A DNA stretch of 64,000 nt from a virus (IMGVR_UViG_3300005529_000010:827-64826), one strand, 5' to 3'; shown: positions 160 to 57,940, counted from the first letter of the stretch. The notes: generated by a model from the letters alone, not told the origin. Translations and numbers: made by a program.

Positions 160-174
160 CGGACAAACTGTCCG
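160..174. promoter_or_regulatory. Palindromic operator copy 1 (CGGACAAACTGTCCG)
   Basis: Perfect CGGACA-N3-TGTCCG in the divergent gap between int and the 220 gene; TTGACC at 141-146. Confidence 0.8.
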
Positions 175-219
175 GAAAAGCAACTGTTAAAACACGACAT
201 TTCACAGGAGAACAGGACT

Positions 220-1260
220 ATGGCGGTACAGCCAAAAGGATACGTGAACGGCGTTCGGAAGCTCTCATGCGAGATCATCGACGTCGACAAGCGCCTGGCT
301 GGACATCTTTTGAAATCAACGCTCTTCCCCCGTCAGAGGGACGTGTCTCAGCAGCAGGTGGACCGCTACGTAAGCGAGATGCGTCACGGCTGGTGGATAC
401 CCGGCTCACCTCTGTTTTTTGCGGTCCTGCCGAACGACGACATGTTTCTCTTAAATGGCCAGCATTCTTTATCGGCCGTCGTCGCCTCGGGGATCAGCCA
501 GCCCTTCACGGCCACGTTTTACGGTTGCCGCGACATGGATGAAGCCGGGCACCTCTACTCGCGATTTGATATCCATCGCCGCCGGAGCTGGAACGATGCC
601 TATAAGGCGGCCGGCTTCCACGAGAAATTCAGCCTTCACAAAACCTGGATCGGCGCCTTTGGGTCGTCGATTCGGCTGCTGCTCGCCCGCTTCCGCCCAT
701 ACGATCGGGAATTCAGCGAAATGCTGTACAGCCGCGAAATGCAGCTCCGGATCTTCGAGGGCTACATCCCGCACGCGAACGCCTACATCGACGCGTTGGC
801 CCACACGACCGGCGTCCGGTCGCTGGTATGGCGCCGGTCCGGCGTGATGAGCGTCGCGATGGAGCTGTTCCGCTACCAGCCCAAGAAGGCGGCGGAGTTT
901 TTCCGCCTCGCCTCGAACGACGATAGGCTGCCGAAGGGCGAAGGCCCCAAGGTGCTCCTCGACTATCTGAACTACACGAACGGCATGTCGTGGGAGAACC
1001 GCCAGCTCATGGCCTACACGACCATGCTGTGCTGGAACGCCTTTTGGCGCGGCGACCTGGTCGGCCAGGTGCAGCCTGGCCGCGTCACCGATATGAGGCT
1101 CCTCGGCACGCCCTGGTCGAAGGCGGGCTATGATCCTTTCGCCGGCCAGTTCGCCGAGCTGGAAAAGACCGTCAAGCCGGTAAAATACGAGAAGTTCACC
1201 ACGGGCATGCTTTTCACCGGCCAGGGCGAGCGAATTCCGGTCACGCAGGCGGCCCAATGA
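220..1260 (+). CDS. ParB/Srx-fold (DGQHR-like) phage protein
   Basis: RDVSQQQVDRYVSEM..GWW...LLNGQHSLSAVV matches the degenerate DGQHR pattern; RBS AGGAG/AGGA upstream. Confidence 0.6.
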   Translation: MAVQPKGYVNGVRKLSCEIIDVDKRLAGHLLKSTLFPRQRDVSQQQVDRYVSEMRHGWWIPGSPLFFAVLPNDDMFLLNGQHSLSAVVASGISQPFTATFYGCRDMDEAGHLYSRFDIHRRRSWNDAYKAAGFHEKFSLHKTWIGAFGSSIRLLLARFRPYDREFSEMLYSREMQLRIFEGYIPHANAYIDALAHTTGVRSLVWRRSGVMSVAMELFRYQPKKAAEFFRLASNDDRLPKGEGPKVLLDYLNYTNGMSWENRQLMAYTTMLCWNAFWRGDLVGQVQPGRVTDMRLLGTPWSKAGYDPFAGQFAELEKTVKPVKYEKFTTGMLFTGQGERIPVTQAAQ

Positions 1261-1458
1261 ATGATGTTTCTCAATGTGCTGATGGCGCTAAATTTCGGGC
1301 TATCGGCCGGCAACCTCTACCTGCTGCGCCAGAACCGGAAATTACATCTCGTTCTCAGTAATGAGATCGCCGCTTGGCAATCCATGAACAACGAAATGAT
1401 CGGCACTCTCGCGGCGGAGCGCAGGCGAGCAAGCGACTCTCACCACGGAGCGGAATGA
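1261..1458 (+). CDS. Small protein with N-terminal hydrophobic helix
   Basis: Abuts previous stop; tightly packed operon. Confidence 0.55.
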   Translation: MMFLNVLMALNFGLSAGNLYLLRQNRKLHLVLSNEIAAWQSMNNEMIGTLAAERRRASDSHHGAE

Positions 1459-1707
1459 ATGGCCTGGAAAGCAAGGACGGGACAGAGGATCGAGACGATC
1501 TATGCCTGGGTCGCAACCGAGCCTGACGGCGGCGAGGGCATCGTGGCGTCGAACTTCGGCGGCGGCACGATGTATCCGCTGATCGGCGCCGACACGGAGC
1601 GCATCGAAAGCATGCGGGAGGAAGCTCTCCGGATCGCGAAGCTGACCGGCTTTCCGATCAAGCTGGTCGAGTTCACAGCCCGGCGCGAGCTGGAGAGCCA
1701 CGGGTGA
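1459..1707 (+). CDS. Hypothetical phage protein
   Basis: GGAG RBS; coupled to neighbours. Confidence 0.65.
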   Translation: MAWKARTGQRIETIYAWVATEPDGGEGIVASNFGGGTMYPLIGADTERIESMREEALRIAKLTGFPIKLVEFTARRELESHG

Positions 1708-1985
1708 GCTGGCACCCCTACATCATCCTCGCGATGAACATCGTTATCGTGATGCTGGCTGGGCTGCTGTGGATCAAGCGGCTCCGGCGCTGGCTCCACG
1801 CGATTGTTATCATCGTCAACCTCGGCTCGGCCTCACTGTTTTTGTACGAGATCTGGCCGAACGCATCGGCGGGCTGCTTCCCGTGGAGCCCGGCCGAGGT
1901 CGAGTTCTATCAGGGCATGACCCTCTGCCCGCACCAGCGGGCCCGCGTGACAATCCCCTTGGCGCTGCCATGGCCGAACACGTAA
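1704..1985 (+). CDS. Small membrane protein
   Basis: GTGA overlap; two hydrophobic segments. Confidence 0.6.
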   Translation: MSWHPYIILAMNIVIVMLAGLLWIKRLRRWLHAIVIIVNLGSASLFLYEIWPNASAGCFPWSPAEVEFYQGMTLCPHQRARVTIPLALPWPNT

Positions 1986-2254
1986 AAAATCAGCAAGAGA
2001 TCATGCGGGCGATATGGCTCGTCATCGACTCCCAAAAGGAGGTCGGCGCCGACGCGCACACGATCCACGAGATGGCCCGCACGCCAGGCGCGCGCGGCGG
2101 CTTCCGTCCGATCGACTTTTCGGTTCTGATGTTCGTGCTCGGATTGATGCACGGGATGAACCGGATCGACTTCGCCGATCGCGACCAGCCTTGGACCGGG
2201 GAATGGTCGGACGTCCGATGGAAGACGGTCCCGCAGGCGGAGTGGCGCGAATGA
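1970..2254 (+). CDS. Hypothetical protein
   Basis: Internal ATG (MAEHVKNQQE) of ORF 1769..2254 fits operon packing. Confidence 0.55.
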   Translation: MAEHVKNQQEIMRAIWLVIDSQKEVGADAHTIHEMARTPGARGGFRPIDFSVLMFVLGLMHGMNRIDFADRDQPWTGEWSDVRWKTVPQAEWRE

Positions 2255-2454
2255 CCCTGCTGCATGTTGCCTGGATTCTCGACGCCGTCCTGTTGGCGCG
2301 ATCGTGGGTCTATCTGGTCAACGTCACCGACCACTACGTGGTCGTGCAGGGCCGGAAGATTGCCGACAACAACACCGGCAAGCCGGTATGGCTGAAAGAG
2401 TATCCGCACCGTCGAGCGCGCGTGTGGAAGACTTGGCGAATTGTGAAAAAATAA
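2251..2454 (+). CDS. Small membrane protein
   Basis: ATGA overlap; MTLLHVAWILDAVLLARSWVYL. Confidence 0.5.
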   Translation: MTLLHVAWILDAVLLARSWVYLVNVTDHYVVVQGRKIADNNTGKPVWLKEYPHRRARVWKTWRIVKK

Positions 2455-2462
2455 AAGCCACG

Positions 2463-2500
2463 AAAAAGCCCCGGCCGGGTTGCTGCGCCTGGTCGGGGCT
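2463..2500 (-). terminator. Intrinsic terminator between convergent operons
   Basis: Stem agccccggccggg / cctggtcggggct with an A-run on the left (U-tract on minus strand). Confidence 0.65.
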
Positions 2501-2556
2501 AAGGTTTCCATTGGGTATGGAAGTGATGCTGCGCCCGAGTCGCGGGCGCGTCAATA

Positions 2557-3931: not shown

Positions 3932-4372
3932 TTACGGGGTCGTGCCGGGCACGAAGGAGCCGAACTGGCCAGAGACCGGGCCACCAGCCACGCTTTGATC
4001 GGTGACGTCGGTCGTGAAGCTGAACGGGCCGTTGGCGCCGGTGCCGCTCCAGGTCAGCGTCGAGGTGATGTTGGCGGCCGTCATGGTGGCGTTGACCGCC
4101 TGGCCGTCGGCCGACAGCGCGACCTGCACGGTCGGGTCAGAAGACGAGACAGAGCCGCCGGCCGGGCCCGGAACGTTGTTGCCGTTTGCGTCCTGGAAAA
4201 TCAGCGGACAGGTAAACGGCGTATTCACGGTGAGTTGTTGCATAGCCACGATGATCTCTCCTTTGGGGGTGGTGGTGTAAGCGCCGGCAAACCGCCCTCT
4301 CACAGGCGGGCCGAATTCTTCCGCAAGCAGGGCTTGGAGAAGCTCGATGATCAGTTTTTTGAACAGGCTCAT
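3932..4372 (-). CDS. Ig-like beta-sandwich protein
   Basis: ATGA-coupled to the protease; DANGN...SSSDPTV beta-rich pattern. Confidence 0.55.
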   Translation of the reverse strand: MSLFKKLIIELLQALLAEEFGPPVRGRFAGAYTTTPKGEIIVAMQQLTVNTPFTCPLIFQDANGNNVPGPAGGSVSSSDPTVQVALSADGQAVNATMTAANITSTLTWSGTGANGPFSFTTDVTDQSVAGGPVSGQFGSFVPGTTP

Positions 4373-5145
4373 GTCTTGCTCGTGAGCGTGACGGTCCAAA
4401 AATCCGCACAAAGATCGGAGTCGGTGATGTAGGTGTAGGGCATCCAGAAATGGCCGTTCAGCGTCGGGTCGCTCCAGCCGGTGCCCCAGCCCGTGCCCCA
4501 GCTATTGCGGCACAGGACGGCCTGCATTGCGTTGTCGTAGCCCACTGCGCACACGGCATGTCCGCCGATCGGTTCGTCCGCTGGATTCGGCAGCTCGACG
4601 ATCGGGATCGTCGCCGGATCGATGTTCTCGAATTGCTGGAAGACGGAAAATCCGAACACGAACGGCAGACCGCTCGCCAGGCAGGTTTTCAAAACCGAGA
4701 GCGCCGTCCCGTCGATGCTGCGGTAGGCGTAGGCGCGGTGCTCCAGAGCGTTCGTGAAGTCACCGATCGGGGGCTCGTCCGCAAACTTCGTGATGTCGTA
4801 AGGCCAGTCCGCTTCCGTGCAGACGCCGTTCCAACCCAGCGTGTGCAGCCCGTCGCGGATCTCGGCGCCAGCATCGACCCCAACCGTGCCCTCGATGGCG
4901 CGCTCATTGAAATAGATGAACAGCCGAGACGGCGTGATGAACGGCAGACCTTCCTTGCCGCGTACGAAGTCGAAAGCGGCGGCGATGGCGTTGGCGGTGC
5001 AGCTCCCGAGCTGGCCTTGGTCGTAAATCGGCGGCGCCTTGGCGTGCAGATCGACGGCCGGCGGAAGCGCAATTGCTGTCGGCCGATACATGTAATCTCG
5101 ATGATCGAGGCGATCACGGCGCCAGCCGTAGCGCGCGATCTTCAT
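4369..5145 (-). CDS. Papain-like C1A cysteine protease (xylellain-like)
   Basis: YGW..D..D.RD pro-segment, DQGQLGSCTANA (catalytic Cys), GGHAV (His), RNSWG (Asn). Confidence 0.92.
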   Translation of the reverse strand: MKIARYGWRRDRLDHRDYMYRPTAIALPPAVDLHAKAPPIYDQGQLGSCTANAIAAAFDFVRGKEGLPFITPSRLFIYFNERAIEGTVGVDAGAEIRDGLHTLGWNGVCTEADWPYDITKFADEPPIGDFTNALEHRAYAYRSIDGTALSVLKTCLASGLPFVFGFSVFQQFENIDPATIPIVELPNPADEPIGGHAVCAVGYDNAMQAVLCRNSWGTGWGTGWSDPTLNGHFWMPYTYITDSDLCADFWTVTLTSKT

Positions 5146-5432
5146 GGGCGGATGACCTGCATCGGCATGTTCGCCGGCATGACGATTGTCGGAACCGGCG
5201 GCACGACGTTCATGCCCTGCTTCACGTCGCATTGCGGGGAGACTTCGGTCGAGTTCTGGTTCACCCGATTCACGGTGATGTCCTCGAAAGCCGAATTGAT
5301 GTGCACGCACCCGGTCGCCGTCACCGGCAGAGCGGCCGCGATTTTCGAGGCGTCGCTACAGCCGCCGCTGAGCCCGAGGGCACACATCAGGCCAACGAGC
5401 GCGAGCGCGCCCGAGATCGAGCGCCAGTTCAT
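5142..5432 (-). CDS. Lipoprotein, putative spanin component
   Basis: Hydrophobic signal ending LSGGC lipobox-like; follows the holin candidate; Pro-rich tail. Confidence 0.55.
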   Translation of the reverse strand: MNWRSISGALALVGLMCALGLSGGCSDASKIAAALPVTATGCVHINSAFEDITVNRVNQNSTEVSPQCDVKQGMNVVPPVPTIVMPANMPMQVIRP

Positions 5433-5629
5433 TGCCCACCAATCTGGTGCGGCGTGAAAAACACGGCGGCGGAAACGATGAGCGTCTGCAGCGCGCCGAC
5501 CACCTCATTCGGGAGCTGGTGGCCGGAGTCGGCGACGTAGGTATCGAACAGATAGACGAGGATTATGGTCAGCGCGCCGGCCAGCGCGGAGGCGACCGTT
5601 TTCGCTACTCCAGGTGTCGGGTCGGCCAT
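5429..5629 (-). CDS. Putative holin (2 TM)
   Basis: 66 aa, two hydrophobic helices, downstream of endolysin. Confidence 0.6.
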   Translation of the reverse strand: MADPTPGVAKTVASALAGALTIILVYLFDTYVADSGHQLPNEVVGALQTLIVSAAVFFTPHQIGGQ

Positions 5630-5674
5630 TTTTGCGGCCTCAATTTCGAAGGTTGATTTCGCGGCAACAATAAC

Positions 5675-5689
5675 CGGACAGATCGTCCG
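5675..5689. promoter_or_regulatory. Operator copy 2 (CGGACAGATCGTCCG)
   Basis: Extends to AACCGGAC-N5-GTCCGGTT; AT-rich gap between endolysin and holin. Confidence 0.75.
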
Positions 5690-5742
5690 GTTCAATTACT
5701 GTTTTTGCGGGAAATTCGCCAATAAAAGAAATGGATAATATT

Positions 5743-6153
5743 TTATGTGAGGTCATAGAATTGCTGTCGTCCGATCACCGCGAGCGGCTCGCGCGGCGGC
5801 AGCGGCCAATGCGCTGGCCACCCTTCCCAGTTCGCCTTGTAGCTTGTGGCTCCGTGGGTGATGTCGGCGAGGTCGCCCGAGATCGCCTCGGCCGCGATCG
5901 TCAGTGCTTCGGCGAACGTCGGATCGGTCTCGTCGACCTCTTCGAGCTGCTTGCGGTTCACGTCGTGCGGCATCCAGCAATCGAATTGCTCGCGCGCCAG
6001 GCATACCGAGATCACGTCGTGCCCCCACCAGGTCGGATCGGACACGCGGTTCATGACCACGTTGGCGACGGCCTGCATGCCGTCCCAACCGTCGCCGCGC
6101 GCCTCCCCCCAGATTGTGCGCGCAAGCACGTCACGAGGGTCGGCGAGATTCAT
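5743..6153 (-). CDS. Endolysin, SleB/Hydrolase_2 cell wall hydrolase
   Basis: LARTIWGEARG..GMQAVANVVMNRV..QFDCW..DITHGAT. Confidence 0.9.
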   Translation of the reverse strand: MNLADPRDVLARTIWGEARGDGWDGMQAVANVVMNRVSDPTWWGHDVISVCLAREQFDCWMPHDVNRKQLEEVDETDPTFAEALTIAAEAISGDLADITHGATSYKANWEGWPAHWPLPPREPLAVIGRQQFYDLT

Positions 6154-6548
6154 TTGCCGAATAGCTTGGTCAGCACGAAGCCTATGGCGGTGCCGACCAG
6201 GCCGGCGATCCCGGTCCACCAGGCGCGATTGATCGAGCTGTGCAGCGCGCCGCGATCCTGTTCGCGCTCGACGGCGCGCAGCCGCCGCTCCCAATCGAGC
6301 CCATCGACCAACCGGTTTGATGCCTTGTAATCCGAGATGACGCTTTCAAGTGCGCGGAGCCGCTTTTCATATTCGATGTAATCGATCTGCAGCTTGTTCG
6401 CCCGCTCGTGATGTGCCGCGAAGCGGTCGTTCGTCGTCTCATTGAGCGAATCGTATTGTTGCTCCAGTCGTGTTAAGCGGTCGCGTTCTTCGGGCGTCAT
6501 ATCGGCATTCTGGCGGCCGGCAATCTCCACAACCTCCGCGACAGACAT
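6150..6548 (-). CDS. Coiled-coil protein with C-terminal TM (XhlA/holin-associated-like)
   Basis: RLTRLEQ/RLRALE/RLRAVE heptads plus one C-terminal TM; ATGA-coupled to endolysin. Confidence 0.6.
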   Translation of the reverse strand: MSVAEVVEIAGRQNADMTPEERDRLTRLEQQYDSLNETTNDRFAAHHERANKLQIDYIEYEKRLRALESVISDYKASNRLVDGLDWERRLRAVEREQDRGALHSSINRAWWTGIAGLVGTAIGFVLTKLFGK

Positions 6549-15025: not shown

Positions 15026-15040
15026 AGGACATCTTGTCCG
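15026..15040. promoter_or_regulatory. Operator copy 3 (AGGACATCTTGTCCG)
   Basis: One mismatch; AT-rich gap directly upstream of the fibre cluster. Confidence 0.7.
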
Positions 15041-15381: not shown

Positions 15382-15597
15382 TCATGCAACTTTCTGGATG
15401 CGTTTTTTCATAGCCGTAAATCCGCCGCCTGATCCTTCGTCGTCGCCGAGCTTGGCGTTCGCCTTACGCACCGCCGCGTCATAGCTCGCGAGGATGCGAA
15501 ACGCCTCAAGTCGTTGATCGAGCGTGATATCGGGTTTTTCGAGATCGGCGGCGATTTTGTTCGCCAGGTCCGCGAGGACGTCGCTGATATCGGCCAT
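15382..15597 (-). CDS. Small helical hypothetical protein
   Basis: 71-aa ORF packed against the next gene. Confidence 0.65.
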   Translation of the reverse strand: MADISDVLADLANKIAADLEKPDITLDQRLEAFRILASYDAAVRKANAKLGDDEGSGGGFTAMKKRIQKVA

Positions 15598-15623: not shown

Positions 15624-15638
15624 CGGACAGCTAGTCCG
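15624..15638. promoter_or_regulatory. Operator copy 4 (CGGACAGCTAGTCCG)
   Basis: Extends to AACCGGAC-N5-GTCCGGTT; divergent intergenic region. Confidence 0.75.
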
Positions 15639-15646: not shown

Positions 15647-15675
15647 TTGACGACCGGAAGGAAATAAAATAAAAT
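15647..15675 (+). promoter_or_regulatory. Near-consensus sigma70 promoter
   Basis: TTGACG (15647-52), 17 bp, TAAAAT (15670-75). Confidence 0.7.
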
Positions 15676-15842
15676 ATTGTGAATTAACGTTGGGTATGGA
15701 GAGGGACGATGGATGGTCGAATTCCGGCGAAAGCCCTGCCGCTGGTCGCGGTGTTATTCATGTTCGCCTTAGTAGCCGTCGGCGGCGGGCTTTACATGCT
15801 CCTCGACGCGCTCGGATTTCAGATCGGCGTGATCGGCTGAAT

Positions 15843-15920
15843 ATGCGCATCGTCGCCGGCGTGGTGCTGCTGACGATCGTGTTGTTTTTCTTGGCCCTGG
15901 TGTTCGGCGTGGGAGGCTGA
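15843..15920 (+). CDS. 25-aa hydrophobic peptide
   Basis: MRIVAGVVLLTIVLFFLALVFGVGG; 3' part of ORF 15690..15920, true start uncertain. Confidence 0.4.
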   Translation: MRIVAGVVLLTIVLFFLALVFGVGG

Positions 15921-15921
15921 G

Positions 15922-16146
15922 ATGTACTGGAAATGGTCGGTTGGCACCGGATTTTTCGTGTTCCTCGCCACCTACGTCTATGCGATCTCGGCCTACGGGC
16001 TGTTGCTGGGCGGCGGCCTGGGGTGGTTTCCCGCGATCATCATCGCCGTGGTCGCCGGGGCCCTGTGGCCGGTCCTAGCTTTCGCGACCGTCATGGGCGC
16101 GCTGGTTACGGTGATCGTGACAATCCTGGCGATCCAGCCGCACTAA
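15922..16146 (+). CDS. Small multi-TM protein (moron, possible superinfection exclusion)
   Basis: GGAGG RBS; almost wholly hydrophobic; antisense to virion operon. Confidence 0.7.
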   Translation: MYWKWSVGTGFFVFLATYVYAISAYGLLLGGGLGWFPAIIIAVVAGALWPVLAFATVMGALVTVIVTILAIQPH

Positions 16147-31305: not shown

Positions 31306-31521
31306 ATGACTTACGCTGTTCATCACTCGACAGTGGCGGCGAAGAAAGAAATCAAATGGATTTCGCCGAAGCGCGCCGCGACCATTCTCGGTAAAACGGT
31401 CGAGTGGCTGATGCGGGCCCGAAAAAAAGGGAGCGGCCCGCCCTATTACAATTCCGGTGGTCGCATTCAGTACGATGAAGACGAAGTGATCGCGTTTCGG
31501 GATTCGTGGCGCCGCGAATGA
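31306..31521 (+). CDS. Excisionase/AlpA-like HTH protein
   Basis: WISPKRAATILG..WL...R..G.GPPYY..GGRIQY. Confidence 0.8.
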   Translation: MTYAVHHSTVAAKKEIKWISPKRAATILGKTVEWLMRARKKGSGPPYYNSGGRIQYDEDEVIAFRDSWRRE

Positions 31522-38077: not shown

Positions 38078-38496
38078 GTCGGACGCTCCTGCAAAATTTC
38101 CTTCGTGCGGTCCATCATGATCCGGCACCACCGCGCGGCCGCGTGCCATTCGTCATCACCGGTGACGAGCGCGCTCGCCCGGGCAACCTTGGCCAGACTT
38201 TGCGCCATAGCCTCGATCGTGTCTGTAATTTCGAGCTGCGCCCGCATATTGGCTGACCCGCGCTCGATCACCTCGCCAAGCGCGCGATCCACCTCCCGTT
38301 CCTGGCTCTCGTGCGCGTCGCGGCCGGCGTCGGTGATGACGTAATTGAACGCATCCAGCCCGTTCAGCAGGCCGCGCTGCGTGAGCGCGCGAACGGGCTT
38401 TTCCCATCGGCCGATCGGCGCGATCGAGCCGCCGCGCACGCAGATCTCCAGGACGGCCAGCTCGTCGGTCGTGAGCGGCTCGATGACTTCGCTCAT
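38074..38496 (-). CDS. Hypothetical winged-helix-like protein
   Basis: ATGA-coupled; LTQRGLL..YVITDAGR. Confidence 0.6.
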   Translation of the reverse strand: MSEVIEPLTTDELAVLEICVRGGSIAPIGRWEKPVRALTQRGLLNGLDAFNYVITDAGRDAHESQEREVDRALGEVIERGSANMRAQLEITDTIEAMAQSLAKVARASALVTGDDEWHAAARWCRIMMDRTKEILQERPT

Positions 38497-39911
38497 ACCA
38501 GAATCCTCTGCCTGATCGCCTCGATGACGCGGTCCAGCACCGGCCGCCAGGCGCGGCTGTCGTCCTGCATGAAGACGCGGTGTCGGGGATACCAGATCGC
38601 TCCATGCTTTTCGTCGCGGCCGATCCGGTAATCGTGGCCGTCCCGACTGTAGAGGACCCAGCACTCAACCTCGGCGGCGCCGCAGATATGGCCAAGCGAC
38701 GTCTCGATCGTCACGACAAGGTCGAGATCGCGGACGATCTGCGCGGTATCGTGAGCGTCGCGGATGAAGGGCGCCAGGTCTTTGATCAACCCTTGGGCGC
38801 CGACGTCGTACAGGTCGCGCGCCCGCTCGCCGATCTGCAGGCTGTAGAGCTGCAACCCCGGGACCTTCGTCAGCTCCAGAAAGTCTGTGACCTTCATTGC
38901 CCGGTAACGTTCAAGGTCGTTGTTCGGGTCGCCCGCCCAACAGATTCCGACATGGAACTTGCGGCCCGGGAGCTTCCACGGGAACGTGGTTTCCAGGGGA
39001 CGGTAAGGCACCGGCAAGCCTGGCGCCGTCTCGAACTCCTCGTCCGTCAGCCGATAGATCAGAGGCAGCGTCGTCAGCGAACACCAATAGTCGGCCGGCG
39101 GGATGTTTTGCTCCAAGGGCCCGATCAGCACGGTTTGCGTCTTGCCCATCAGCATGCCGGCGGCGAGCTTCATCAGCGGCGGGTGAAGCGTCAGGCACAC
39201 CTGGCCACCATATTCGCCGATGCGCGGCACGAAGCGCAGATAGGAGAGCGCGTCGCCCATGCCTTGCTCGGCGGTCAGCAGCAACACCTTGCCGTCGAGC
39301 CGCTGCCCCTCCCATTTGGGATACGGCATTTGCCGGAAGTGGCGGTAGTTCCCTTGGCCGAAGCGGGACTCGAAATGCAGCAGGCCGCGCATCCATTGCC
39401 GATCGAACAGGCAGGCGAACGCAAGCGCGAGTTCCGTGTCATCGTCGCCGCCAAGCTCCCACGCGCGCTGCGCTGCGTCGCACGCCTCTCGCGTTCGGCC
39501 GGTGATGGACTCGACGAGAGACAGATTCGACCACGACAGCGGCAAGTCCGGCTCCGCCCGGATCGCGGCGCGCAGCACGGTCTCGGCTTCGGCATAGCGC
39601 GCGGCTTCATAGAGCCGGTAGCCGAGATTGCAAAGGCACCGACCCCAGGACGGGTCCAGCTCGATCGCCCGGCGATAACAGGCAATCGCGGCTTCGCGAA
39701 ATCTGAGATCACCATTCGCGTTGCCCAGCTCGTACCAGCCCTCCTTGAAAGTCGGGTCGGTCTCGACGGCCGACGACAGGAGCCGATACGCGGTATGGCG
39801 ATCGGCCTCCGCCAGCTCGACGCCCTTCTGGCGCATGACGACCGCCTGGTTGTGATACCAGATCGCGCGGTTGCGCGGCGTGTCGGGGATCTCGATTTGC
39901 TGGTCCGTCAT
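38493..39911 (-). CDS. TPR-repeat glycosyltransferase (GT9-like C-terminus)
   Basis: TPR helices then W.G..L.GK.LL..AEQGMGD, VGICWAG.P, LDLVVTIETSLGH..GA. Confidence 0.88.
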   Translation of the reverse strand: MTDQQIEIPDTPRNRAIWYHNQAVVMRQKGVELAEADRHTAYRLLSSAVETDPTFKEGWYELGNANGDLRFREAAIACYRRAIELDPSWGRCLCNLGYRLYEAARYAEAETVLRAAIRAEPDLPLSWSNLSLVESITGRTREACDAAQRAWELGGDDDTELALAFACLFDRQWMRGLLHFESRFGQGNYRHFRQMPYPKWEGQRLDGKVLLLTAEQGMGDALSYLRFVPRIGEYGGQVCLTLHPPLMKLAAGMLMGKTQTVLIGPLEQNIPPADYWCSLTTLPLIYRLTDEEFETAPGLPVPYRPLETTFPWKLPGRKFHVGICWAGDPNNDLERYRAMKVTDFLELTKVPGLQLYSLQIGERARDLYDVGAQGLIKDLAPFIRDAHDTAQIVRDLDLVVTIETSLGHICGAAEVECWVLYSRDGHDYRIGRDEKHGAIWYPRHRVFMQDDSRAWRPVLDRVIEAIRQRILV

Positions 39912-41137
39912 GCGTGCAAATTCGGGGTTGGGAAATAGGTGAGAAACCGATCGTCCGAGTTCGGCCGAAGCGCTTTGATCTTGTCGACAATCTCGGCTTC
40001 CATATTCCAGGCGGGGATCAGGAACGCGATCTTGCCCATCTGATCGAGATGGCCGGGCGCCACGATCTCCGCGCCGCACGGGGCGATCTTGCCTTGCTTG
40101 AGCGGGTTGTCATCGAAGATGACGCCCAGCTCGACGCCGGCGAAATTCAGGAACGTCATGCCCTTTGCGGCCGCGCCGTAGCCCGCCGCGTCCCACCCTT
40201 CGCTTTCGAGCTTGACGAGCGTCGTGCGGACCCAATCGGCGGACTGCTGCGCACGCGTCTGCAGCGAATCGTAGATATCCACCTGGTAATAACCGCGCCC
40301 CTTCTCGGCGTGACCCAGCTCGTAATCCTCGGCCACCTGGATCTCGGCAGCGCCCGGCCGGTTGATCAGCTCGACCAGGTAAGACGTGCCGTGCACATCG
40401 ACATGCGAGATCTTGTCGATGAACAAGCCGGCCCGCCGCGCGAGCGCGACCCACGAGCTGACGGTGAAGAACGATAAATGTTCGTGGTAGCAGGTGTCGA
40501 ACTCGCCGCGCTCGATCATGCGGGCCTGGCTCGTCTGGATATAAATCCGCCCGCCGGGCGCGAGCACCTGTTTACAGAGCTGTAGAAAATTCAGTGGATT
40601 GGCGACGTGGCCGAGCACGTTCATCGCCACGACGACATCGTACGGCTCTTCGTCCGCGAGCAGCTCCACGACGCCGCGATGCCAATAATCGCAAATGGTC
40701 GGCACGTCGCCGCTGACCTTGAGGCCGATCGCAAGGTTCTGCGCAGGATCGACGCCCTGGACTTTGTGGCCGCGCGCCGCGAACGACCGCAACAACGTTC
40801 CGTCGTTGGACGCAATCTCCAGCACCCGGAACGGTTTATTAGGAGGAAATCCCTCCTCGACCCGGAAGACGAAGTCGGTGAAATAGTGCCTTAGGCTCGC
40901 GCTCGTTCCGCTGACATAGGGGTAGTCGCGGAACATCAGGTCGGGGTCGACAGACACCAGGTTCTGGCTGTGCCAGCACCGCACGCAGCGCTGCAGCCCG
41001 AGCGGGAAGGTCTTCAACGGCCCGTCGCCGCGCTCGCGGTAGGTGTTGGCGAGCGGCTGTTCGCCGAGATCGAGATACAGCACCAGATCGCCGGCGCCAC
41101 AGGCGAGGCATTCGTCCAGACGGATGAACCCTCTCAT
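39908..41137 (-). CDS. NDP-sugar C-methyltransferase
   Basis: CLACG..LDLGEQPLAN zinc domain, LEIASNDG, YHEHLSFF, GYGAAAKG, DDNPLKQG. Confidence 0.92.
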   Translation of the reverse strand: MRGFIRLDECLACGAGDLVLYLDLGEQPLANTYRERGDGPLKTFPLGLQRCVRCWHSQNLVSVDPDLMFRDYPYVSGTSASLRHYFTDFVFRVEEGFPPNKPFRVLEIASNDGTLLRSFAARGHKVQGVDPAQNLAIGLKVSGDVPTICDYWHRGVVELLADEEPYDVVVAMNVLGHVANPLNFLQLCKQVLAPGGRIYIQTSQARMIERGEFDTCYHEHLSFFTVSSWVALARRAGLFIDKISHVDVHGTSYLVELINRPGAAEIQVAEDYELGHAEKGRGYYQVDIYDSLQTRAQQSADWVRTTLVKLESEGWDAAGYGAAAKGMTFLNFAGVELGVIFDDNPLKQGKIAPCGAEIVAPGHLDQMGKIAFLIPAWNMEAEIVDKIKALRPNSDDRFLTYFPTPNLHA

Positions 41138-41973
41138 GGCGCGAAACTCCCGAGCGGCTGTTCGCGATGCAGCTCGACCAGGCCATCGACGATCGAGGCT
41201 GGAGTGTCCACCGGTGGAAAACCAGGGATATAAGTCGGCTCCATCGTGAAATCGTATGTCGGCGTCGGATCGTGCGTTTCGATCCTGGCGTTCAGCCGAG
41301 CCGCGACGAAATTAGCGAGCTTGCCGATCTGCGCATTGAAGCTCACCAGGTTGATGATCCCCGGCTCGACCCCGCCGCCCAGCAGACCCTCGACGCCGCT
41401 GCAGAGATCGCGCACGCCGAGGATCGGCCGCATCGCCTCCAGGTTGGACGCGTGCACGACTCCCGTTTCCAGGGCGCTCTTGACCATCGCCTGGATCACC
41501 ATGTCAGGCCGCAGGTTGGGCGCGGCGCCGCACACGGTTCCAAAGCGCAGAACGTAGGTGTTTTCATAGATCGGCGGGATCAGCATCTCGGCCGCGATCT
41601 TGGTCAGATCATAGATGTTGCTGGGCCCGCCGAGATCGCGCGACAGCACCGACGCCGACGACGCGAACAGCAGTGGCTGGCCTGTGAGACGTCTGGTGAC
41701 GTCGGCCAGCTCGGACACATTCTCGCGCACGGCGCGCGCCGGCTCGGCGACCGCGCGCCTGACGCTCGATCGGCCGGCAACCCAGATCACGGCTTCTATC
41801 TCTTCGAAATCGAAAGCGCGCGTCGCGCTGCACGAGCACTTCACATTTTCGGGGTTGGTACGGTTGCCGCGCTCTTCGGTGTCGACCGTCTGGACATCAT
41901 GACCGCAGTCGGTGAGGTGAGCGAAAAGTGCGCTGCCGACATAGCCGCAGCCGCCGATGATCAAGATCTTCAC
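41134..41973 (-). CDS. NAD-dependent epimerase/dehydratase (extended SDR)
   Basis: ILIIGGCGYVG, FASSASV, YDLTK, LRFGTVCG. Confidence 0.9.
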   Translation of the reverse strand: MKILIIGGCGYVGSALFAHLTDCGHDVQTVDTEERGNRTNPENVKCSCSATRAFDFEEIEAVIWVAGRSSVRRAVAEPARAVRENVSELADVTRRLTGQPLLFASSASVLSRDLGGPSNIYDLTKIAAEMLIPPIYENTYVLRFGTVCGAAPNLRPDMVIQAMVKSALETGVVHASNLEAMRPILGVRDLCSGVEGLLGGGVEPGIINLVSFNAQIGKLANFVAARLNARIETHDPTPTYDFTMEPTYIPGFPPVDTPASIVDGLVELHREQPLGSFAP

Positions 41974-42089: not shown

Positions 42090-42104
42090 CGGACGATTTG
42101 TCCG
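42090..42104. promoter_or_regulatory. Operator copy 5 (CGGACGATTTGTCCG)
   Basis: Upstream of the sugar cluster; exact reverse complement of copy 6. Confidence 0.75.
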
Positions 42105-42129: not shown

Positions 42130-42540
42130 TTATGTCGAGATCGTGGATAACTCGGCGGACAAATCGTCCGGTTGGTCGAAGAGCGTGTCGGCCAGCTCCT
42201 CGCCGCGACGATAGACGGCCATGTCGAGATGACCAGCGCGAACCATCTGGCGCCGCTGGTTGCGCGTGAACCGGTTGCGGATTTTCAGAAAGGCTCGTCG
42301 ACAATCGAATGAGCGGCAGATCACCGGGCGCTTGTCATAGATCGTGCAGCCGGCATCGCCGAGAAAGAAGCAATCGCCGTTCGGCTTGTGCTTGAGCACA
42401 GGAGCCAAGCCCGGACGTCTGGGGATGCCTTCTCTCACGCCGTCGCCATAGAGCGAAGGATCGTCGCCTTCGTCGATGTGCAGCGTGACGATCTCGTGCT
42501 TACAGCAGAGCGTGCAGCCGCCGCACGGAACGGCGGTCAT
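42130..42540 (-). CDS. YkgJ-family cysteine cluster (CxxCxxCC) protein
   Basis: CGGCTLCC..CFFL...CTIYDKRP..CRSFDC. Confidence 0.85.
   Translation of the reverse strand: MTAVPCGGCTLCCKHEIVTLHIDEGDDPSLYGDGVREGIPRRPGLAPVLKHKPNGDCFFLGDAGCTIYDKRPVICRSFDCRRAFLKIRNRFTRNQRRQMVRAGHLDMAVYRRGEELADTLFDQPDDLSAELSTIST
42156..42170. promoter_or_regulatory. Operator copy 6 (CGGACAAATCGTCCG)
   Basis: Within the 3' end of the YkgJ-like gene. Confidence 0.75.
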
Positions 42541-42959
42541 GCGGCGCGCAGCGCCTCGGCCGACACCAGGAAATCCGCGAGCGTGACCCGCCGCAGGTTT
42601 TCCTGAAAATGTGACACGAGCTGCGGAAAGATCGGCTCCAACAGCGCGGCCGCATCGGCGTTCAGGCCAAGATCGCGATCGGGCCCGACCTCCGTCGTGT
42701 TGACGCATTCGAGCACGTCCAGCATCGAAATTTCGTTCGCCGCACGCGCCAGTTGATATCCGCCCATTGGTCCACGCAGGCCCTTGATCACGCCGCCCCG
42801 GGTCAAGCTCTGCAGCACCGGTTCGAGATAGCGGCGTTCGCTACCCATGAAGGCCATCAGCTCGGCCGCTTGGATCGACCGGCCCTCTTCCTGGCGCGCG
42901 ATGTGGATCATCGCGACCAACGTCAGCGCGTATTTTCTCGACATCTGAAACAGCATCAT
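42537..42959 (-). CDS. Rrf2-family transcription regulator
   Basis: YAL..MIHIA..RYLEPVLQSL..GG...GLRGPMGGYQLAR..EIS.LDV. Confidence 0.9.
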   Translation of the reverse strand: MMLFQMSRKYALTLVAMIHIARQEEGRSIQAAELMAFMGSERRYLEPVLQSLTRGGVIKGLRGPMGGYQLARAANEISMLDVLECVNTTEVGPDRDLGLNADAAALLEPIFPQLVSHFQENLRRVTLADFLVSAEALRAA

Positions 42960-45149: not shown

Positions 45150-45164
45150 TGGACAAATTGTCCG
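45150..45164. promoter_or_regulatory. Operator copy 7 (TGGACAAATTGTCCG)
   Basis: On minus strand overlaps TTGCGC-17-CATTCT, upstream of the 45056 gene. Confidence 0.7.
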
Positions 45165-46123: not shown

Positions 46124-46348
46124 TCATTCGGACAAAATGTCCGGCGCGTCAACCGGGATCGCGACGCCGGCAGCTATCAGCTCGGGAAGATCACGCCGAA
46201 GCACACACAGACCGCACAGCTCCCGAACCCATTCGCCCGGCAGTTCGCCGGCGAGGGCCGCAACGACGTCACGGGCCAGCGTGAACCCATTGCACAGGCT
46301 GATCGGGCGTCCGCATTCGATGCAATGCCGCTTGCGTTCGGTCGTCAT
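46124..46348 (-). CDS. Zinc-finger hypothetical protein
   Basis: CIECG..LCGLC. Confidence 0.55.
   Translation of the reverse strand: MTTERKRHCIECGRPISLCNGFTLARDVVAALAGELPGEWVRELCGLCVLRRDLPELIAAGVAIPVDAPDILSE
46129..46143. promoter_or_regulatory. Operator copy 8 (CGGACAAAATGTCCG)
   Basis: Perfect consensus; TTGACG 3 nt upstream on minus strand. Confidence 0.8.
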
Positions 46349-48213: not shown

Positions 48214-48228
48214 CGGACAAACTGTCCG
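48214..48228. promoter_or_regulatory. Operator copy 9 (CGGACAAACTGTCCG)
   Basis: Same TTATTCGGACAAACTGTCCG 20-mer as copy 1; fills the spacer of minus-strand TTGACG-17-TAACGA. Confidence 0.82.
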
Positions 48229-50553: not shown

Positions 50554-50582
50554 TTGTCATCGGACAAGTTGTCCGGTATGGT
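50554..50582 (+). promoter_or_regulatory. Promoter with operator copy 10 (CGGACAAGTTGTCCG, 50561-50575) in its spacer
   Basis: TTGTCA-17-TATGGT upstream of the DUF932 gene. Confidence 0.82.
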
Positions 50583-56526: not shown

Positions 56527-56539
56527 CGCCTTGGTTTTC

Positions 56540-57097: not shown

Positions 57098-57216
57098 TTA
57101 TGATCTCCATGGCCATGTTTTGGCGCTCCGCTACGCCAGGTTGAGGTAAGACAGCCCTTCCATTTTTCCGAATACACCCGTATGTTACCCGTCCAGATTG
57201 GCCGCCGAGATTCTGG

Positions 57217-57453
57217 TTACTCGGCAGCCTCGGATTGGGGTGTTTCGGGGTCGGTTGTGGCTTGGGTTTTCAGGTTCTCAAAAAAGTCCATGGCGACCAT
57301 GCGGCCGTGGCTAGCAAATTGCTTAATCAACGGAACGTGCCAGCGAAATGGAACGTTATTCCGCTCACGCCACTTTCGGACCGCCTCGGGATGGACGCCC
57401 AGCTCGCGGGCGCACGTTTCGATCAGTCCCCATGAACTCTCGTGAGATGCCAT
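57217..57453 (-). CDS. cro: Cro-like HTH regulator
   Basis: ARELGVHPEAVRKWRER..VP.RW; divergent from XRE repressor. Confidence 0.7.
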   Translation of the reverse strand: MASHESSWGLIETCARELGVHPEAVRKWRERNNVPFRWHVPLIKQFASHGRMVAMDFFENLKTQATTDPETPQSEAAE

Positions 57454-57465
57454 GGCCGGCACAAT

Positions 57466-57480
57466 CGTACAATCTGTCCG
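57466..57480. promoter_or_regulatory. Operator copy 11 (CGTACAATCTGTCCG)
   Basis: In the cro/cI gap, overlapping minus-strand TTGACC-17-GATTGT. Confidence 0.75.
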
Positions 57481-57534
57481 GTCGGTCAATGGGGCCGCAA
57501 GAGAGCGGGCAAGCACAAGAGGGACGCCATTCAA

Positions 57535-57849
57535 ATGAAAAAGGTCGTTCAGTTTCCGTTGGAGAAACCAATGCCGGATCGGGTTAGTCTCGAAAGACAA
57601 TTCATCGCTCGAACTCGCGAGCTGCGTGAGCGCGCCCAGCTCACCCAGCGCGAGATCGCGAGCCTGCTGGGCTGCAATGAAGAGGCGTACCGAAAGTATG
57701 AAACGCGGTCGCCGCTGCCCGTGGTGCTGGTCGGCAAGTTTGCCGTCGCGGTCAAGGCGGATCTGCATTTCGTGGTGACCGGCTATCATCGGAAAGCGGA
57801 AAAGGCAGAGGTCGTGACGCGATTGCGAACGGCAGCAGCTCGTCGCTGA
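57535..57849 (+). CDS. cI: XRE-family repressor (CI-like, no S24 peptidase domain)
   Basis: RTRELRERAQLTQREIASLLG....YRKYETRS; flanked by operators 11 and 12. Confidence 0.75.
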   Translation: MKKVVQFPLEKPMPDRVSLERQFIARTRELRERAQLTQREIASLLGCNEEAYRKYETRSPLPVVLVGKFAVAVKADLHFVVTGYHRKAEKAEVVTRLRTAAARR

Positions 57850-57851
57850 AC

Positions 57852-57893
57852 GCAGCCGGCCCCGAGTCGGGGCGCTGTCAAATTAATTTTTTA
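57852..57893 (+). terminator. Terminator after repressor gene
   Basis: gccccga/tcggggc stem followed by a T-rich tract. Confidence 0.5.
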
Positions 57894-57910
57894 AATTTAG
57901 AAATCCGGGC

Positions 57911-57940
57911 TTGACGTGACCGGACAATCTGTCCGATCTT
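57911..57940 (+). promoter_or_regulatory. Promoter with operator copy 12 (CGGACAATCTGTCCG, 57921-57935)
   Basis: AT-rich upstream element, TTGACG at 57911, ATG at 57947. Confidence 0.8.

What the first reader, a model, noticed from the sequence alone, without database searches (positions are those of the whole stretch)
160..57935. Genome-wide regulon: twelve copies of the palindrome CGGACA-N3-TGTCCG
Seen at 160, 5675, 15026, 15624, 42090, 42156, 45150, 46129, 48214, 50561, 57466 and 57921, each with at most one mismatch. Nearly all are intergenic or at gene ends. Several sit in or over -35/-10 spacers: TTGTCA-17-TATGGT at 50554, TTGACG-17-TAACGA at copy 9, TTGACC-17-GATTGT before cro, TTGACG at 57911. 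Two flank the XRE repressor gene. Established: lambda-type repressors use clustered operators, while dispersed sites are known from P1 C1 and mycobacteriophage L5 stoperators. Inference: one regulator, probably the 57535 XRE protein, directly controls int, early operons, the sugar cluster, the fibre block and the holin block.
Basis: partly seen in the sequence, partly recalled or inferred. Interest (0 to 1): 0.75.

Follow-up and report, generated by a model that had tools for sequence, protein, structure and literature searches.

The report
Phage repressor operators scattered genome-wide
A soil phage carries twelve copies of one short mirror-image DNA word at the starts of nearly all its gene blocks, most likely the docking site of its own small repressor: a clean new example of a known way for a dormant phage to keep its genes silent.

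Summary
CGGACA-N3-TGTCCG occurs 12 times with at most one mismatch (0.29 expected). It is the top-ranked palindrome of the window. Eleven of the 12 copies are intergenic, in a genome that is about 7% intergenic.

The window is a complete, roughly 64.7-kb circular temperate phage. Seven of the 12 copies fill the spacer of a sigma70-like promoter, against 2-6% of random positions.

The core GGACA-N3-TGTCC flanks homologues of the 57535 XRE gene and of its divergent Cro-like partner in 29 of 31 related loci. The geometry there is conserved: TTGACN, 3-4 nt, core, -10, then a leaderless cro.

- Phages with the same capsid but without this XRE lack the motif.
- Three candidate host genomes hold it at background level.
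- Rrf2 is absent from motif-bearing relatives.

Relatives keep only 2-5 operators, all beside the repressor gene. Only this phage has spread them to int, early, middle, late, fibre and lysis promoters.

This is a new member of a known kind (P1 C1, L5, phiC31). The scan has noted similar regulons on other DNA.

The parts
160..174 (.). Operator copy 1 (exact), in the divergent gap between int (ATG 120, minus strand) and gene 220-1260 (plus strand)
   Evidence: Minus strand: TTGCTT(183-178)-ttcc-core-GAATAA, the same geometry as the cro promoter. Plus strand: TTGACC(141-146)-17-CAAACT(164-169) overlaps the site (read).
5675..5689 (.). Operator copy 2 (1 mismatch), in the spacer of minus-strand promoter TTGAAC(5695-5690)-17-TATTGT(5672-5667). 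It lies upstream of a holin-like 66-aa gene, a lipoprotein (LSGGC), a papain-like peptidase and two unknown genes (5629 down to 2557).
   Evidence: (8/12 promoter score).
15026..15040 (.). Operator copy 3 (1 mismatch), 4 nt upstream of an extended -10 (TGcTAGTAT, 15024-15016, minus strand). It lies ahead of the 1320-aa tail fibre gene (ATG 14988) and the genes down to the endolysin.
   Evidence: There is no clear -35 (one search score 6).
15624..15638 (.). Operator copy 4 (1 mismatch). It lies over the -35 zone of a minus-strand promoter (-10 TATAGT 15609-15604, leaderless ATG 15597). It is also 8 nt upstream of the plus-strand promoter TTGACG(15647)-17-TAAAAT(15670).
42090..42104 (.). Operator copy 5 (1 mismatch), in the spacer of minus-strand promoter TTCACA(42111-42106)-17-TACGTT(42088-42083). 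It lies ahead of the epimerase, C-methyltransferase and TPR genes and the co-directional late block (41973 down to 16143).
   Evidence: (8/12).
42156..42170 (.). Operator copy 6 (1 mismatch), 66 bp upstream of copy 5 (centre to centre), inside the 3' end of the CxxCxxCC ORF. It is probably an auxiliary or cooperative site, or a roadblock.
   Evidence: no promoter around it.
45150..45164 (.). Operator copy 7 (1 mismatch), with the weak promoter TTGCGC(45174-45169)-17-CATTCT. It lies ahead of the operon 45056 down to 42130, which includes Rrf2 and CxxCxxCC.
   Evidence: (6/12).
46129..46143 (.). Operator copy 8 (exact), in the spacer of minus-strand promoter TTGACG(46152-46147)-18-AATGAT(46128-46123). 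It lies ahead of small genes 45810 down to 45342.
   Evidence: 9/12.
48214..48228 (.). Operator copy 9 (exact), abutting the -35 TTGACG (48234-48229, minus strand). It lies ahead of the operon 48155 down to 46449.
   Evidence: 8/12.
50561..50575 (.). Operator copy 10 (exact), in the spacer of plus-strand promoter TTGTCA(50554)-17-TATGGT(50582). It lies ahead of the DUF932 operon (50654 onward).
   Evidence: (9/12).
57466..57480 (.). Operator copy 11 (1 mismatch), in the spacer of the cro promoter TTGACC(57489-57484)-17-GATTGT(57466-57461). The ATG at 57453 follows after 7 nt (leaderless). The mismatched half reads TACAAT on the plus strand, a possible -10 for the XRE gene.
   Evidence: 8/12. 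The geometry is conserved in 12 of 12 loci shown.
57921..57935 (.). Operator copy 12 (exact), in the spacer of the rightward promoter TTGACG(57911)-18-GATCTT(57940). The ATG at 57947 follows after 6 nt.
   Evidence: 8/12. The same arrangement is seen in relatives.
57535..57849 (+). XRE / HTH_31 protein (104 aa), in the CI-like position between the two operator-bearing divergent early promoters. It is the proposed main binder.
   Evidence: Pfam HTH_31 at 30.6 bits, above the cut-off of 27. In the AF2 model, helix 49-57 carries the family-invariant Y52 K54 Y55 E56 R58. Foldseek places it next to 434 Cro/repressor, P22 c2 and C.AhdI.
57217..57453 (-). Cro-like protein (78 aa), first gene of the leftward replication operon (RuvC-like gene, O-like initiator). 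It probably binds the same sites.
   Evidence: Family profile A2 hits PDB Cro 3bd1 (E 1.5e-4) and P22 Cro 1rzs (0.024). Homologues lie divergent from the XRE in five relatives.
1..120 (-). 5' end of the tyrosine integrase gene. It continues across the circular junction to its stop at 63591.

Best explanation
The twelve palindromes are operators of the phage's own immunity switch. The 104-aa XRE protein (57535-57849) sits in the position of lambda CI, between two divergent early promoters. It binds as a dimer to aCCGGACA-N3-TGTCCG. Because the site lies in the -35/-10 spacer, or over the -35 or -10, of most promoters that carry it, a bound repressor keeps RNA polymerase off. In the lysogen, one protein would therefore directly silence int, the cro/replication operon, the rightward early operon, the DUF932 operon, three leftward middle operons, the sugar/late operon, the tail-fibre operon and the lysis-accessory operon. 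The divergent Cro-like protein, conserved together with the XRE, probably uses the same sites during lytic growth. What is shown: the motif is real, it lies in promoter-like contexts, and it co-occurs with the XRE/Cro gene pair in other phages. What is inferred: binding, dimer stoichiometry, repression, and which of the two proteins acts at the dispersed sites.
For: - **Enrichment and placement.** There are 12 copies against 0.29 expected. This is the top palindrome of the window. Eleven of 12 copies are intergenic against about 7% intergenic sequence, and 11 of 21 gaps of at least 60 bp hold one.
- **Promoter overlap.** Seven of 12 sites have a sigma70-like promoter scoring at least 8 of 12 with the site centre in its spacer. 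This holds for 2.4% of 5000 random positions and 6.0% of 3000 random intergenic positions. Eight of 12 sites have a TTG-hexamer ending 0-5 nt upstream, against 7.4% of random flanks.
- **Link to the XRE/Cro pair.** The core GGACA-N3-TGTCC (at most one mismatch) lies on both sides of XRE homologues of 32-51% identity. This holds in 7 of 7 IMG/VR loci, 5 of 6 further loci including three Hyphomicrobiales MAG prophages, and 17 of 18 metagenome loci.
- **Conserved geometry.** In the window and 11 relatives the cro-side copy reads TTGACN (TTTACA once), 3-4 nt, core, a -10-like hexamer. In 10 of the 12 an ATG follows 11-13 nt after the core.
- **Conserved recognition helix.** Y52, K54, Y55, E56 and R58 are invariant, which matches the invariant core.
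- **Negative controls.** Eighteen whole records of capsid relatives (MCP 66-75% identical) hold no exact core, and their one-mismatch counts match the control. Seventeen of the 18 lack the XRE family. Three MAG host genomes of 3.4-4.0 Mb hold 4-7 exact cores against 2-4 for the control.
- **Rrf2 excluded.** It is absent from 5 of 5 motif-bearing relatives.
- **Fold.** The model resembles 434 Cro and repressor, P22 c2 and controller proteins. From established knowledge, these bind palindromes as dimers.
Against: - No binding, expression or transcription-start data exist. No RNA run holds this DNA.
- The XRE and the Cro-like protein are equally conserved neighbours of the motif, so co-occurrence cannot tell them apart.
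- The XRE has no cleavage or oligomerisation domain (104 aa, HTH only). How it dimerises and how it would be inactivated on induction are both unknown.
- Five of 12 sites score below 8 in the spacer test, and two (15624, 42156) score 0. Several -10 hexamers are weak (GATTGT, GATCTT, CATTCT).
- The generic promoter scan of 41.5-58.5 kb is not enriched overall (4 found against 3.0 expected).
- No close relative was found, so conservation of the ten dispersed copies at syntenic places could not be tested.
- Ten of 21 intergenic gaps of at least 60 bp carry no site, so not every transcription unit need be under this control.
Confidence: 0.75

Rival explanations
1. Only the Cro-like protein (57217-57453) binds the palindrome. 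The XRE protein recognises something else or acts indirectly. The dispersed sites would then serve lytic-phase turn-down rather than lysogenic silencing.
For: Cro-like homologues accompany the motif in the relatives examined (5 aligned). They have their own invariant helix residues (K27, W28, R31, P35, W38). The family matches solved Cro proteins, which bind palindromes as dimers (established knowledge).
Against: The cro promoter itself carries the site in its spacer in 12 of 12 loci, which is the place expected for repression of cro by the CI-like partner. A second operator-bearing promoter lies on the far side of the XRE gene, the usual frame of a repressor gene. In known switches both proteins share the operators (established knowledge for lambda, 434 and P22).
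Confidence: 0.1
2. A subset of the copies (42156, 15026, 15624, possibly 45150) are not promoter operators. They would be roadblocks that stop transcription reading through into the late, fibre and lysis genes, in the manner of stoperators.
For: These copies score 0-6 of 12 in the promoter test. They lie between co-directional genes of the long minus-strand block. Copies 42156 and 42090 form a tandem pair 66 bp apart. Stoperators are documented for L5-type phages (PMC9283540, passages read).
Against: The sites are symmetric, whereas stoperator action depends on the orientation of an asymmetric site bound by a two-domain monomer (PMC9283540, passages). Plausible -10 elements lie next to 15026 (extended -10) and 15624 (TATAGT followed by a leaderless ATG).
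Confidence: 0.15
3. Another phage regulator binds the palindrome: Rrf2 (42537-42959), the HTH_17 protein (31306-31521) or the 70-aa protein (57947-58159).
For: All three are predicted or possible DNA-binding proteins. Two copies lie just downstream of the Rrf2/CxxCxxCC pair.
Against: Rrf2 is absent from 5 of 5 motif-bearing relatives, three of them complete genomes. The ORFs after the downstream operators in relatives do not resemble the 70-aa protein. This rests only on reading the ORF lists, with no alignment made. The motif tracks the XRE/Cro pair in 29 of 31 loci.
Confidence: 0.03
4. A host transcription factor binds the palindrome, and the phage borrows a host regulon.
For: Phages do sometimes place host-factor sites (such as LexA boxes) on their promoters (established knowledge). 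The host of this phage is unknown.
Against: Three MAG genomes that carry related prophages hold only 4-7 exact cores per 3.4-4.0 Mb against 2-4 for the reversed control, and some of those lie at the prophage. Eighteen phages with the same capsid type lack the motif. The motif always sits beside the XRE/Cro genes.
Confidence: 0.03
5. The palindrome acts as an RNA hairpin (terminator, processing or stability element), not as a DNA site.
For: It can form a 5-6-bp stem with a 3-5-nt loop, and several copies lie at gene ends.
Against: No T-run follows the copies, and the terminator scan does not pick them out as a class. At the conserved cro and rightward promoters the site lies upstream of the inferred start of a leaderless mRNA, so it would not be transcribed. 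The mismatch in copy 57466 breaks the middle of the stem.
Confidence: 0.02

Closest known systems
Lambda / 434 / P22-type CI-Cro immunity switch
   Same: - The repressor and cro genes are divergent, and cro heads the replication operon.
- Palindromic operators overlap the early promoters on both sides of the repressor gene.
- The repressor has the 434-like five-helix HTH fold.
   Different: - There is a single operator per promoter, not a tripartite OR/OL.
- The repressor is 104 aa with no S24 autocleavage or oligomerisation domain.
- Ten further operators lie 6-42 kb from the repressor gene, on int, middle, late, fibre and lysis promoters.
- The cro mRNA appears leaderless.
Phage P1 C1 repressor with dispersed operators
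   Same: One repressor has many operators scattered over the genome and controls separate operons. P1 has 22 of them (PMC8546580, Methods passage read).
   Different: The P1 operators are asymmetric 17-mers (same passage), whereas these are symmetric 15-mers. The protein here is a small XRE/HTH_31 protein; Pfam gave only HTH families. P1 is a plasmid prophage, while this phage encodes an integrase.
Cluster A mycobacteriophage repressor (L5 gp71) with operators and stoperators
   Same: More than twenty repressor sites are spread through the genome, in promoters and in short intergenic spaces, silencing the whole prophage (PMC9283540, passages read).
   Different: The L5 sites are asymmetric 13-mers bound by a monomer with two DNA-binding domains, and they act in an orientation-dependent way on elongation (same passages). 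Here the site is a palindrome, the protein is a single small HTH domain, and most copies sit inside promoter spacers.
Streptomyces phage phiC31 repressor and its conserved inverted repeats (recalled, not seen in any call)
   Same: As I recall it, a symmetric inverted-repeat operator is present at many early-region sites near promoters. That would make it the closest analogue in being both symmetric and dispersed.
   Different: The host phylum and the repressor family differ. I could not check details, because the search returned nothing relevant.

Membership tests
XRE / HTH_31 (434 Cro-like) DNA-binding proteins | Sequence match to the family model above its curated cut-off | tested here: met
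   PF13560 HTH_31 at 30.6 bits against a cut-off of 27, E 4.1e-7.
XRE / HTH_31 (434 Cro-like) DNA-binding proteins | Five-helix lambda-repressor-like fold with a helix-turn-helix | tested here: met
   The AF2 model has pLDDT 81.8 and helices at 16-33, 38-45, 49-57, 63-72 and 77-82. Best Foldseek chains are C.AhdI, C.BclI, 434 Cro, 434 repressor and P22 c2, with target-normalised TM about 0.8 but E only about 1e-2.
Lambda-type CI/Cro switch | Divergent repressor and cro genes separated by a shared operator/promoter region | tested here: met
   The XRE gene starts at 57535 (plus strand) and the Cro-like gene at ATG 57453 (minus strand), 81 bp apart with copy 57466 between them.
Lambda-type CI/Cro switch | Tripartite, cooperatively bound operators (OR1-3, OL1-3) | tested here: not met
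   There is one copy (at most one mismatch) on each side of the XRE gene. The nearest further match (57483) has 3 mismatches and overlaps the -35. Relatives have 1-2 per side.
Lambda-type CI/Cro switch | Repressor with a C-terminal S24 (LexA-like) autocleavage domain | tested here: not met
   The protein is 104 aa, with only HTH families in Pfam. The model shows an HTH domain plus one low-confidence C-terminal helix.
Lambda-type CI/Cro switch | Repressor and Cro bind the operators | not testable with these tools
   This needs EMSA, footprinting or ChIP. The only support is co-occurrence in 29 of 31 loci.
P1 C1-type dispersed-operator regulon | Many operators dispersed over the genome at separate operons | tested here: met
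   Twelve copies span 160-57935, and 11 of 21 intergenic gaps hold one.
P1 C1-type dispersed-operator regulon | Asymmetric operator | tested here: not met
   The site is a palindrome. The P1 consensus is asymmetric (PMC8546580 passage).
L5-type stoperator system | Asymmetric site whose orientation follows the direction of transcription | tested here: not met
   The core is symmetric. Only the flanking base is biased: (A3, sites in promoter orientation) the column just before CGGACA is conserved in at least 70% of the 12 rows.
L5-type stoperator system | Sites in promoter-less intergenic spaces that block elongation | tested here: inconclusive
   Seven of 12 sites are clearly promoter-embedded. 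Five score below 8 of 12, and two of those (15624, 42156) score 0. No transcript data exist.
L5-type stoperator system | Two-domain monomeric repressor (HTH plus stoperator domain, about 183 aa) | tested here: not met
   The protein is a 104-aa single-HTH protein. The L5 architecture is taken from PMC9283540 passages.

The most novel reading that the evidence does not exclude
This phage has replaced the usual regulatory cascade with a flat circuit. One 104-aa XRE repressor would directly gate nearly every transcription unit, including the late, tail-fibre, lysis and integrase promoters. This state would have arisen recently, by de novo creation of about ten operators inside pre-existing promoter spacers, from an ancestral immunity module that carries only 2-5 operators beside the repressor gene. 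Two observations point that way: the flanks of the copies share no homology, and all relatives keep their operators clustered. If true, this is a natural case of a regulon expanding within a single genome, in which the order of events could be traced.
Probability: 0.3. Interest if true: 0.55.

Novelty: new member of a known kind. Interest (0 to 1): 0.4.

Why it matters
The finding gives a testable operator/repressor pair for an uncharacterised immunity module. That module is widespread in phages and prophages of Hyphomicrobiales (rhizobia, methanotrophs), where very few phage switches have been studied.

The contrast between 2-5 clustered operators in relatives and 12 dispersed ones here shows a regulon growing within one genome. 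It also shows that 'many dispersed sites' is not confined to asymmetric, monomer-bound operators such as those of P1 and L5.

In practice, the 15-bp site and the 104-aa protein could serve as a compact repressor/operator part for alphaproteobacterial genetics. None of this changes how phage repression is understood in principle.

Tried and rejected
- **Close relatives by DNA or protein.** Megablast of 20 kb against GenBank phages found no match. tblastn of the XRE against the same set found no match. The terminase finds only relatives of at most 38% identity. The phage therefore has no close described relative.
- **De novo search for dispersed palindromes in five capsid relatives.** The exact 5-mer-arm survey and the 6-mer-arm survey with at most one mismatch found nothing comparable in G006, G013, G014 or G017. 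G010 has its own palindrome.
- **k-mer counting.** It was swamped by GC-rich coding words and was useless.
- **Generic promoter and terminator scan.** The scan of 41.5-58.5 kb was not enriched overall. The site-centred test was needed.
- **RNA evidence.** No RNA holder is listed, and read laying was not used.
- **Homodimer prediction of the XRE.** The complex-prediction job (two copies, alignment A1) never ran.
- **phiC31 literature.** The search returned nothing relevant, so that comparison rests on recall.
- **Duplicated promoter cassette.** Rejected. The flanks of the 12 copies do not align beyond the site.
- **tRNA genes.** There are none in the window, so they give no clue to the attachment site.

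Full report
**1. The observation**

CGGACA-N3-TGTCCG occurs 12 times with at most one mismatch, at exactly the coordinates given. Five copies are exact and seven have one mismatch. One hundred dinucleotide shuffles gave a mean of 0.29 and never more than 2. First-order Markov simulations (200) expect 0.01 exact and 0.26 one-mismatch copies.

Two-mismatch copies are not clearly in excess (8 against 4.0 +/- 2.1), and all eight lie inside genes. Three-mismatch matches are somewhat in excess (66 against 40.6 +/- 6.6), which I leave unexplained. In a survey of every 6-N(0-12)-6 palindrome with at most one mismatch, this one ranks first in the window (n=12, lambda 0.26).

**2. What the window is**

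The contig is 64,826 bp with a 90-bp terminal overlap, so it is a circular assembly. The window is bases 827-64826, and the remaining 826 bases hold no further copy. It is a temperate tailed phage. Its identifiable genes are:
- an SU10-type adaptor, a major head protein, a large terminase, and a 1320-aa tail fibre with an endosialidase-chaperone domain;
- a SleB-type endolysin;
- a tyrosine integrase that spans the junction;
- an O-like replication initiator, a RuvC-like resolvase, a Gp3-like protein and a DUF932 protein;
- an Rrf2 regulator;
- an epimerase / C-methyltransferase / TPR cluster.

It has no close relative among GenBank phages.

**3. Where the copies lie**

I made my own gene map with a codon log-likelihood caller trained on the long ORFs, supplemented by Pfam and PHROG hits. 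In that map 11 of 12 copies are fully intergenic, while about 7.2% of the window is intergenic. Eleven of the 21 gaps of at least 60 bp hold a copy. Copy 42156 lies in the last ~40 nt of the CxxCxxCC ORF.

Each copy sits at the head of a block of co-directional genes:
- int and the divergent gene 220 (copy 160);
- holin-like gene, lipoprotein and papain-like peptidase (5675);
- tail fibre down to the endolysin (15026);
- two small genes starting at 15597 (15624);
- epimerase, methyltransferase and TPR genes, followed without a change of strand by terminase, portal, capsid and tail genes (42090, with 42156 lying 66 bp upstream);
- three leftward operons of small genes (45150, 46129, 48214);
- the DUF932 operon (50561);
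- cro and the replication genes (57466);
- the rightward operon with the Gp3-like gene (57921).

**4. Promoter context**

For each site I asked for the best TTGACA-(16-18)-TATAAT match (A2 and T6 required) whose spacer contains the centre of the site. Seven of 12 sites score at least 8 of 12. This holds for 2.4% of 5000 random positions and 6.0% of 3000 random intergenic positions. The seven are:
- TTGAAC-17-TATTGT (5675)
- TTCACA-17-TACGTT (42090)
- TTGACG-18-AATGAT (46129)
- TTGACG-18-AACGAT (48214)
- TTGTCA-17-TATGGT (50561)
- TTGACC-17-GATTGT (57466)
- TTGACG-18-GATCTT (57921)

Eight of 12 sites have a TTG-hexamer ending 0-5 nt upstream, against 7.4% of random flanks.

The remaining sites read as follows:
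- Copy 15026 lies 4 nt upstream of an extended -10 (TGcTAGTAT).
- Copy 15624 lies over the -35 zone of a TATAGT that is followed 6 nt later by the ATG of a 71-aa gene.
- Copy 160 has the cro-type geometry on the int strand and overlaps a -10 on the other strand (read).
- Copies 42156 and 45150 have weak or no promoter support.

The flanks of the 12 copies do not align beyond aCCGGACA-N3-TGTCCG, so they are not copies of one cassette. All promoter assignments are inferences from sequence. The generic scan of this region is not enriched in promoter-like sites overall.

**5. Which protein**

The XRE gene (57535-57849, HTH_31 above cut-off) lies between copies 57466 and 57921. Divergent from it, 81 bp away, a 78-aa ORF (ATG 57453) heads the replication operon. 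Its family profile matches solved Cro proteins (3bd1 E 1.5e-4, P22 Cro 0.024). This is the frame of a lambda-type immunity region.

I then looked for XRE homologues elsewhere:
- IMG/VR gave 7 loci at 33-46% identity. All 7 carry the core GGACA-N3-TGTCC (at most one mismatch, A/T-rich centre) just upstream and just downstream of the homologue. L002 and L003 are identical in this region.
- A family alignment (A1) found three more IMG/VR loci and three prophage loci in MAGs labelled Allorhizobium, Hyphomicrobiales bacterium and Methylocystis. Five of these six show the same arrangement, and L097 is unclear.
- The metagenome scan gave 18 loci at 34-65% identity. Seventeen have at least 2 copies within -500/+1200 of the homologue. 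L115 is cut at the gene and has one copy.

In total, 29 of 31 loci (with those two redundancies) carry flanking copies.

In the window and 11 relatives the cro-side copy has one geometry: TTGACN (TTTACA once), 3-4 nt, the 13-bp core, then a -10-like hexamer. In 10 of the 12, an ATG follows 11-13 nt after the core, which implies a leaderless cro mRNA. The downstream promoter repeats the geometry, often with a second copy just upstream of its -35.

The XRE family keeps Y52, K54, Y55, E56, R58, P60 and P62 invariant. In the AF2 model (pLDDT 81.8), residues 49-57 form the third, recognition helix. The nearest solved folds are controller proteins, 434 Cro and repressor, and P22 c2 (E about 1e-2, target TM about 0.8). 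The Cro-like family is conserved as well, so co-occurrence cannot separate the two proteins. By analogy with known switches, I expect both to use the sites.

**6. Controls against other binders**

- Forty-nine IMG/VR loci encode a major head protein 62-81% identical to this phage's.
- Eighteen of those records (66-75% identical), 15 of them at least 90% complete, were scanned whole. None has an exact core, and one-mismatch counts (0-7) match the reversed-pattern control (0-4).
- Seventeen of the 18 have no member of the XRE family. G006 has one weak hit (E 2.8e-5) and no motif.
- The three MAG genomes hold 7, 4 and 4 exact cores per 3.4-4.0 Mb against 2, 4 and 2 for the control. There is therefore no sign of a host regulon.
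- Rrf2 is absent from 5 of 5 motif-bearing relatives, three of them complete.

**7. What is special here**

Five XRE-module relatives were scanned whole (three of them complete, 43-57 kb). Their good copies number 2-4 and all lie at the immunity region. The other one-mismatch hits (0-3 per record) are no more frequent than the control. The metagenome loci with long flanks likewise show almost no distant copies.

This phage alone has ten further copies, 6-42 kb from the repressor gene. The ancestral state of the module therefore appears to be clustered operators, and the genome-wide spread is a feature of this phage. I found no close relative with which to date the spread.

**8. Mechanism proposed**

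A dimer of the XRE protein occupies the 15-17-bp palindrome inside or over the core promoter and excludes RNA polymerase. In the lysogen this silences integrase, early, middle, late, fibre and lysis transcription units directly.

The mismatched half of copy 57466 reads TACAAT on the XRE strand. The repressor may therefore also limit its own promoter, but this is an inference only.

The tandem pair 42156/42090, and copies with weak promoter support, may add cooperative binding or act as roadblocks. How the repressor is inactivated is unknown, since it has no cleavage domain.

I put 0.75 on the sites being XRE (and Cro) operators acting mainly at promoters.

**9. Comparison with what is known**

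- Lambdoid repressors use a few symmetric operators, while mycobacteriophage repressors use many asymmetric ones (PMC1934351, abstract seen in the listing).
- P1 has 22 dispersed asymmetric 17-bp C1 operators (PMC8546580, Methods passage).
- L5 has more than twenty asymmetric 13-mers bound by a two-domain monomer, some of them acting on elongation in an orientation-dependent way (PMC9283540, passages).
- The present case combines a lambda-type frame and a symmetric operator with P1-like dispersal.
- From memory, phiC31 offers a precedent for symmetric dispersed repeats. I could not verify it.
- This scan has already noted several phages with one palindrome inside many promoter spacers on other DNA. 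I did not test those notes.

I therefore class this as a new member of a known kind. The repressor/operator family is undescribed as far as my searches could show.

Noticed in passing
window 57453, 57947, 15597 (start codons): Three genes begin 6-7 nt after a -10-like hexamer with no room for a ribosome-binding site, which suggests leaderless mRNAs. In one search the cro homologues of most relatives show the same layout.
   Followed up: partly
window 42130-42959 (minus strand): A phage-borne Rrf2 regulator (Pfam E 6e-23) is followed by a CxxCxxCC zinc/iron-chelating protein with an overlapping stop and start. This is an unusual pair for a phage, and its function is unknown. Rrf2 is absent from the five XRE-module relatives scanned whole.
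   Followed up: partly
window 38493-41973 (minus strand): A NAD-dependent epimerase, a C-methyltransferase with a zinc-binding N-terminus and a TPR protein sit directly upstream of, and co-directional with, the terminase/capsid block, behind the tandem operators. If repressed in the lysogen they are not a classical conversion moron. They might modify a sugar during lytic growth.
   Followed up: no
window 15647-16146 (plus strand): Two small membrane proteins (43 and 74 aa) lie on the opposite strand, inside the late block. They sit behind the near-consensus promoter TTGACG-17-TAAAAT, which the operator does not overlap. They could be expressed in the lysogen, for example for exclusion.
   Followed up: no
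window 4369-6548 (minus strand): The lysis region is split by operator 5675. A 132-aa protein with a C-terminal membrane helix and a SleB-type endolysin lie upstream of it. A two-helix holin-like 66-aa protein, a lipoprotein with an LSGGC lipobox and a papain-family peptidase lie downstream.
   Followed up: partly
G010 (L077:1971 and 14433; L078:3800, 11838 and 15884): A capsid relative without this XRE has its own dispersed palindrome, TGTAGT-N7-ACTACA: three exact copies, one with one mismatch and one with two, spread over 34 kb. One copy lies beside a TTGAC hexamer and next to an ORF that reads like a ribbon-helix-helix protein (my reading of the translation, with no family search). Dispersed operators may recur in this phage lineage with other specificities.
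   Followed up: partly
G010 60257-60610 (L079): There is a dense array of GC-rich 15-bp-spaced repeats near one end of this relative's genome. I did not examine it.
   Followed up: no
window, whole: Matches with exactly three mismatches to the palindrome are in excess (66 against 40.6 +/- 6.6 in Markov simulations; 86 against 44.7 for at most three mismatches). I cannot tell whether these are weak sites or a codon-composition effect.
   Followed up: no
window 31306-31521 (plus strand): An HTH_17 (excisionase/AlpA-like) gene lies alone on the plus strand between the portal and capsid-assembly genes. It is preceded by a 357-bp gap that carries no operator.
   Followed up: no
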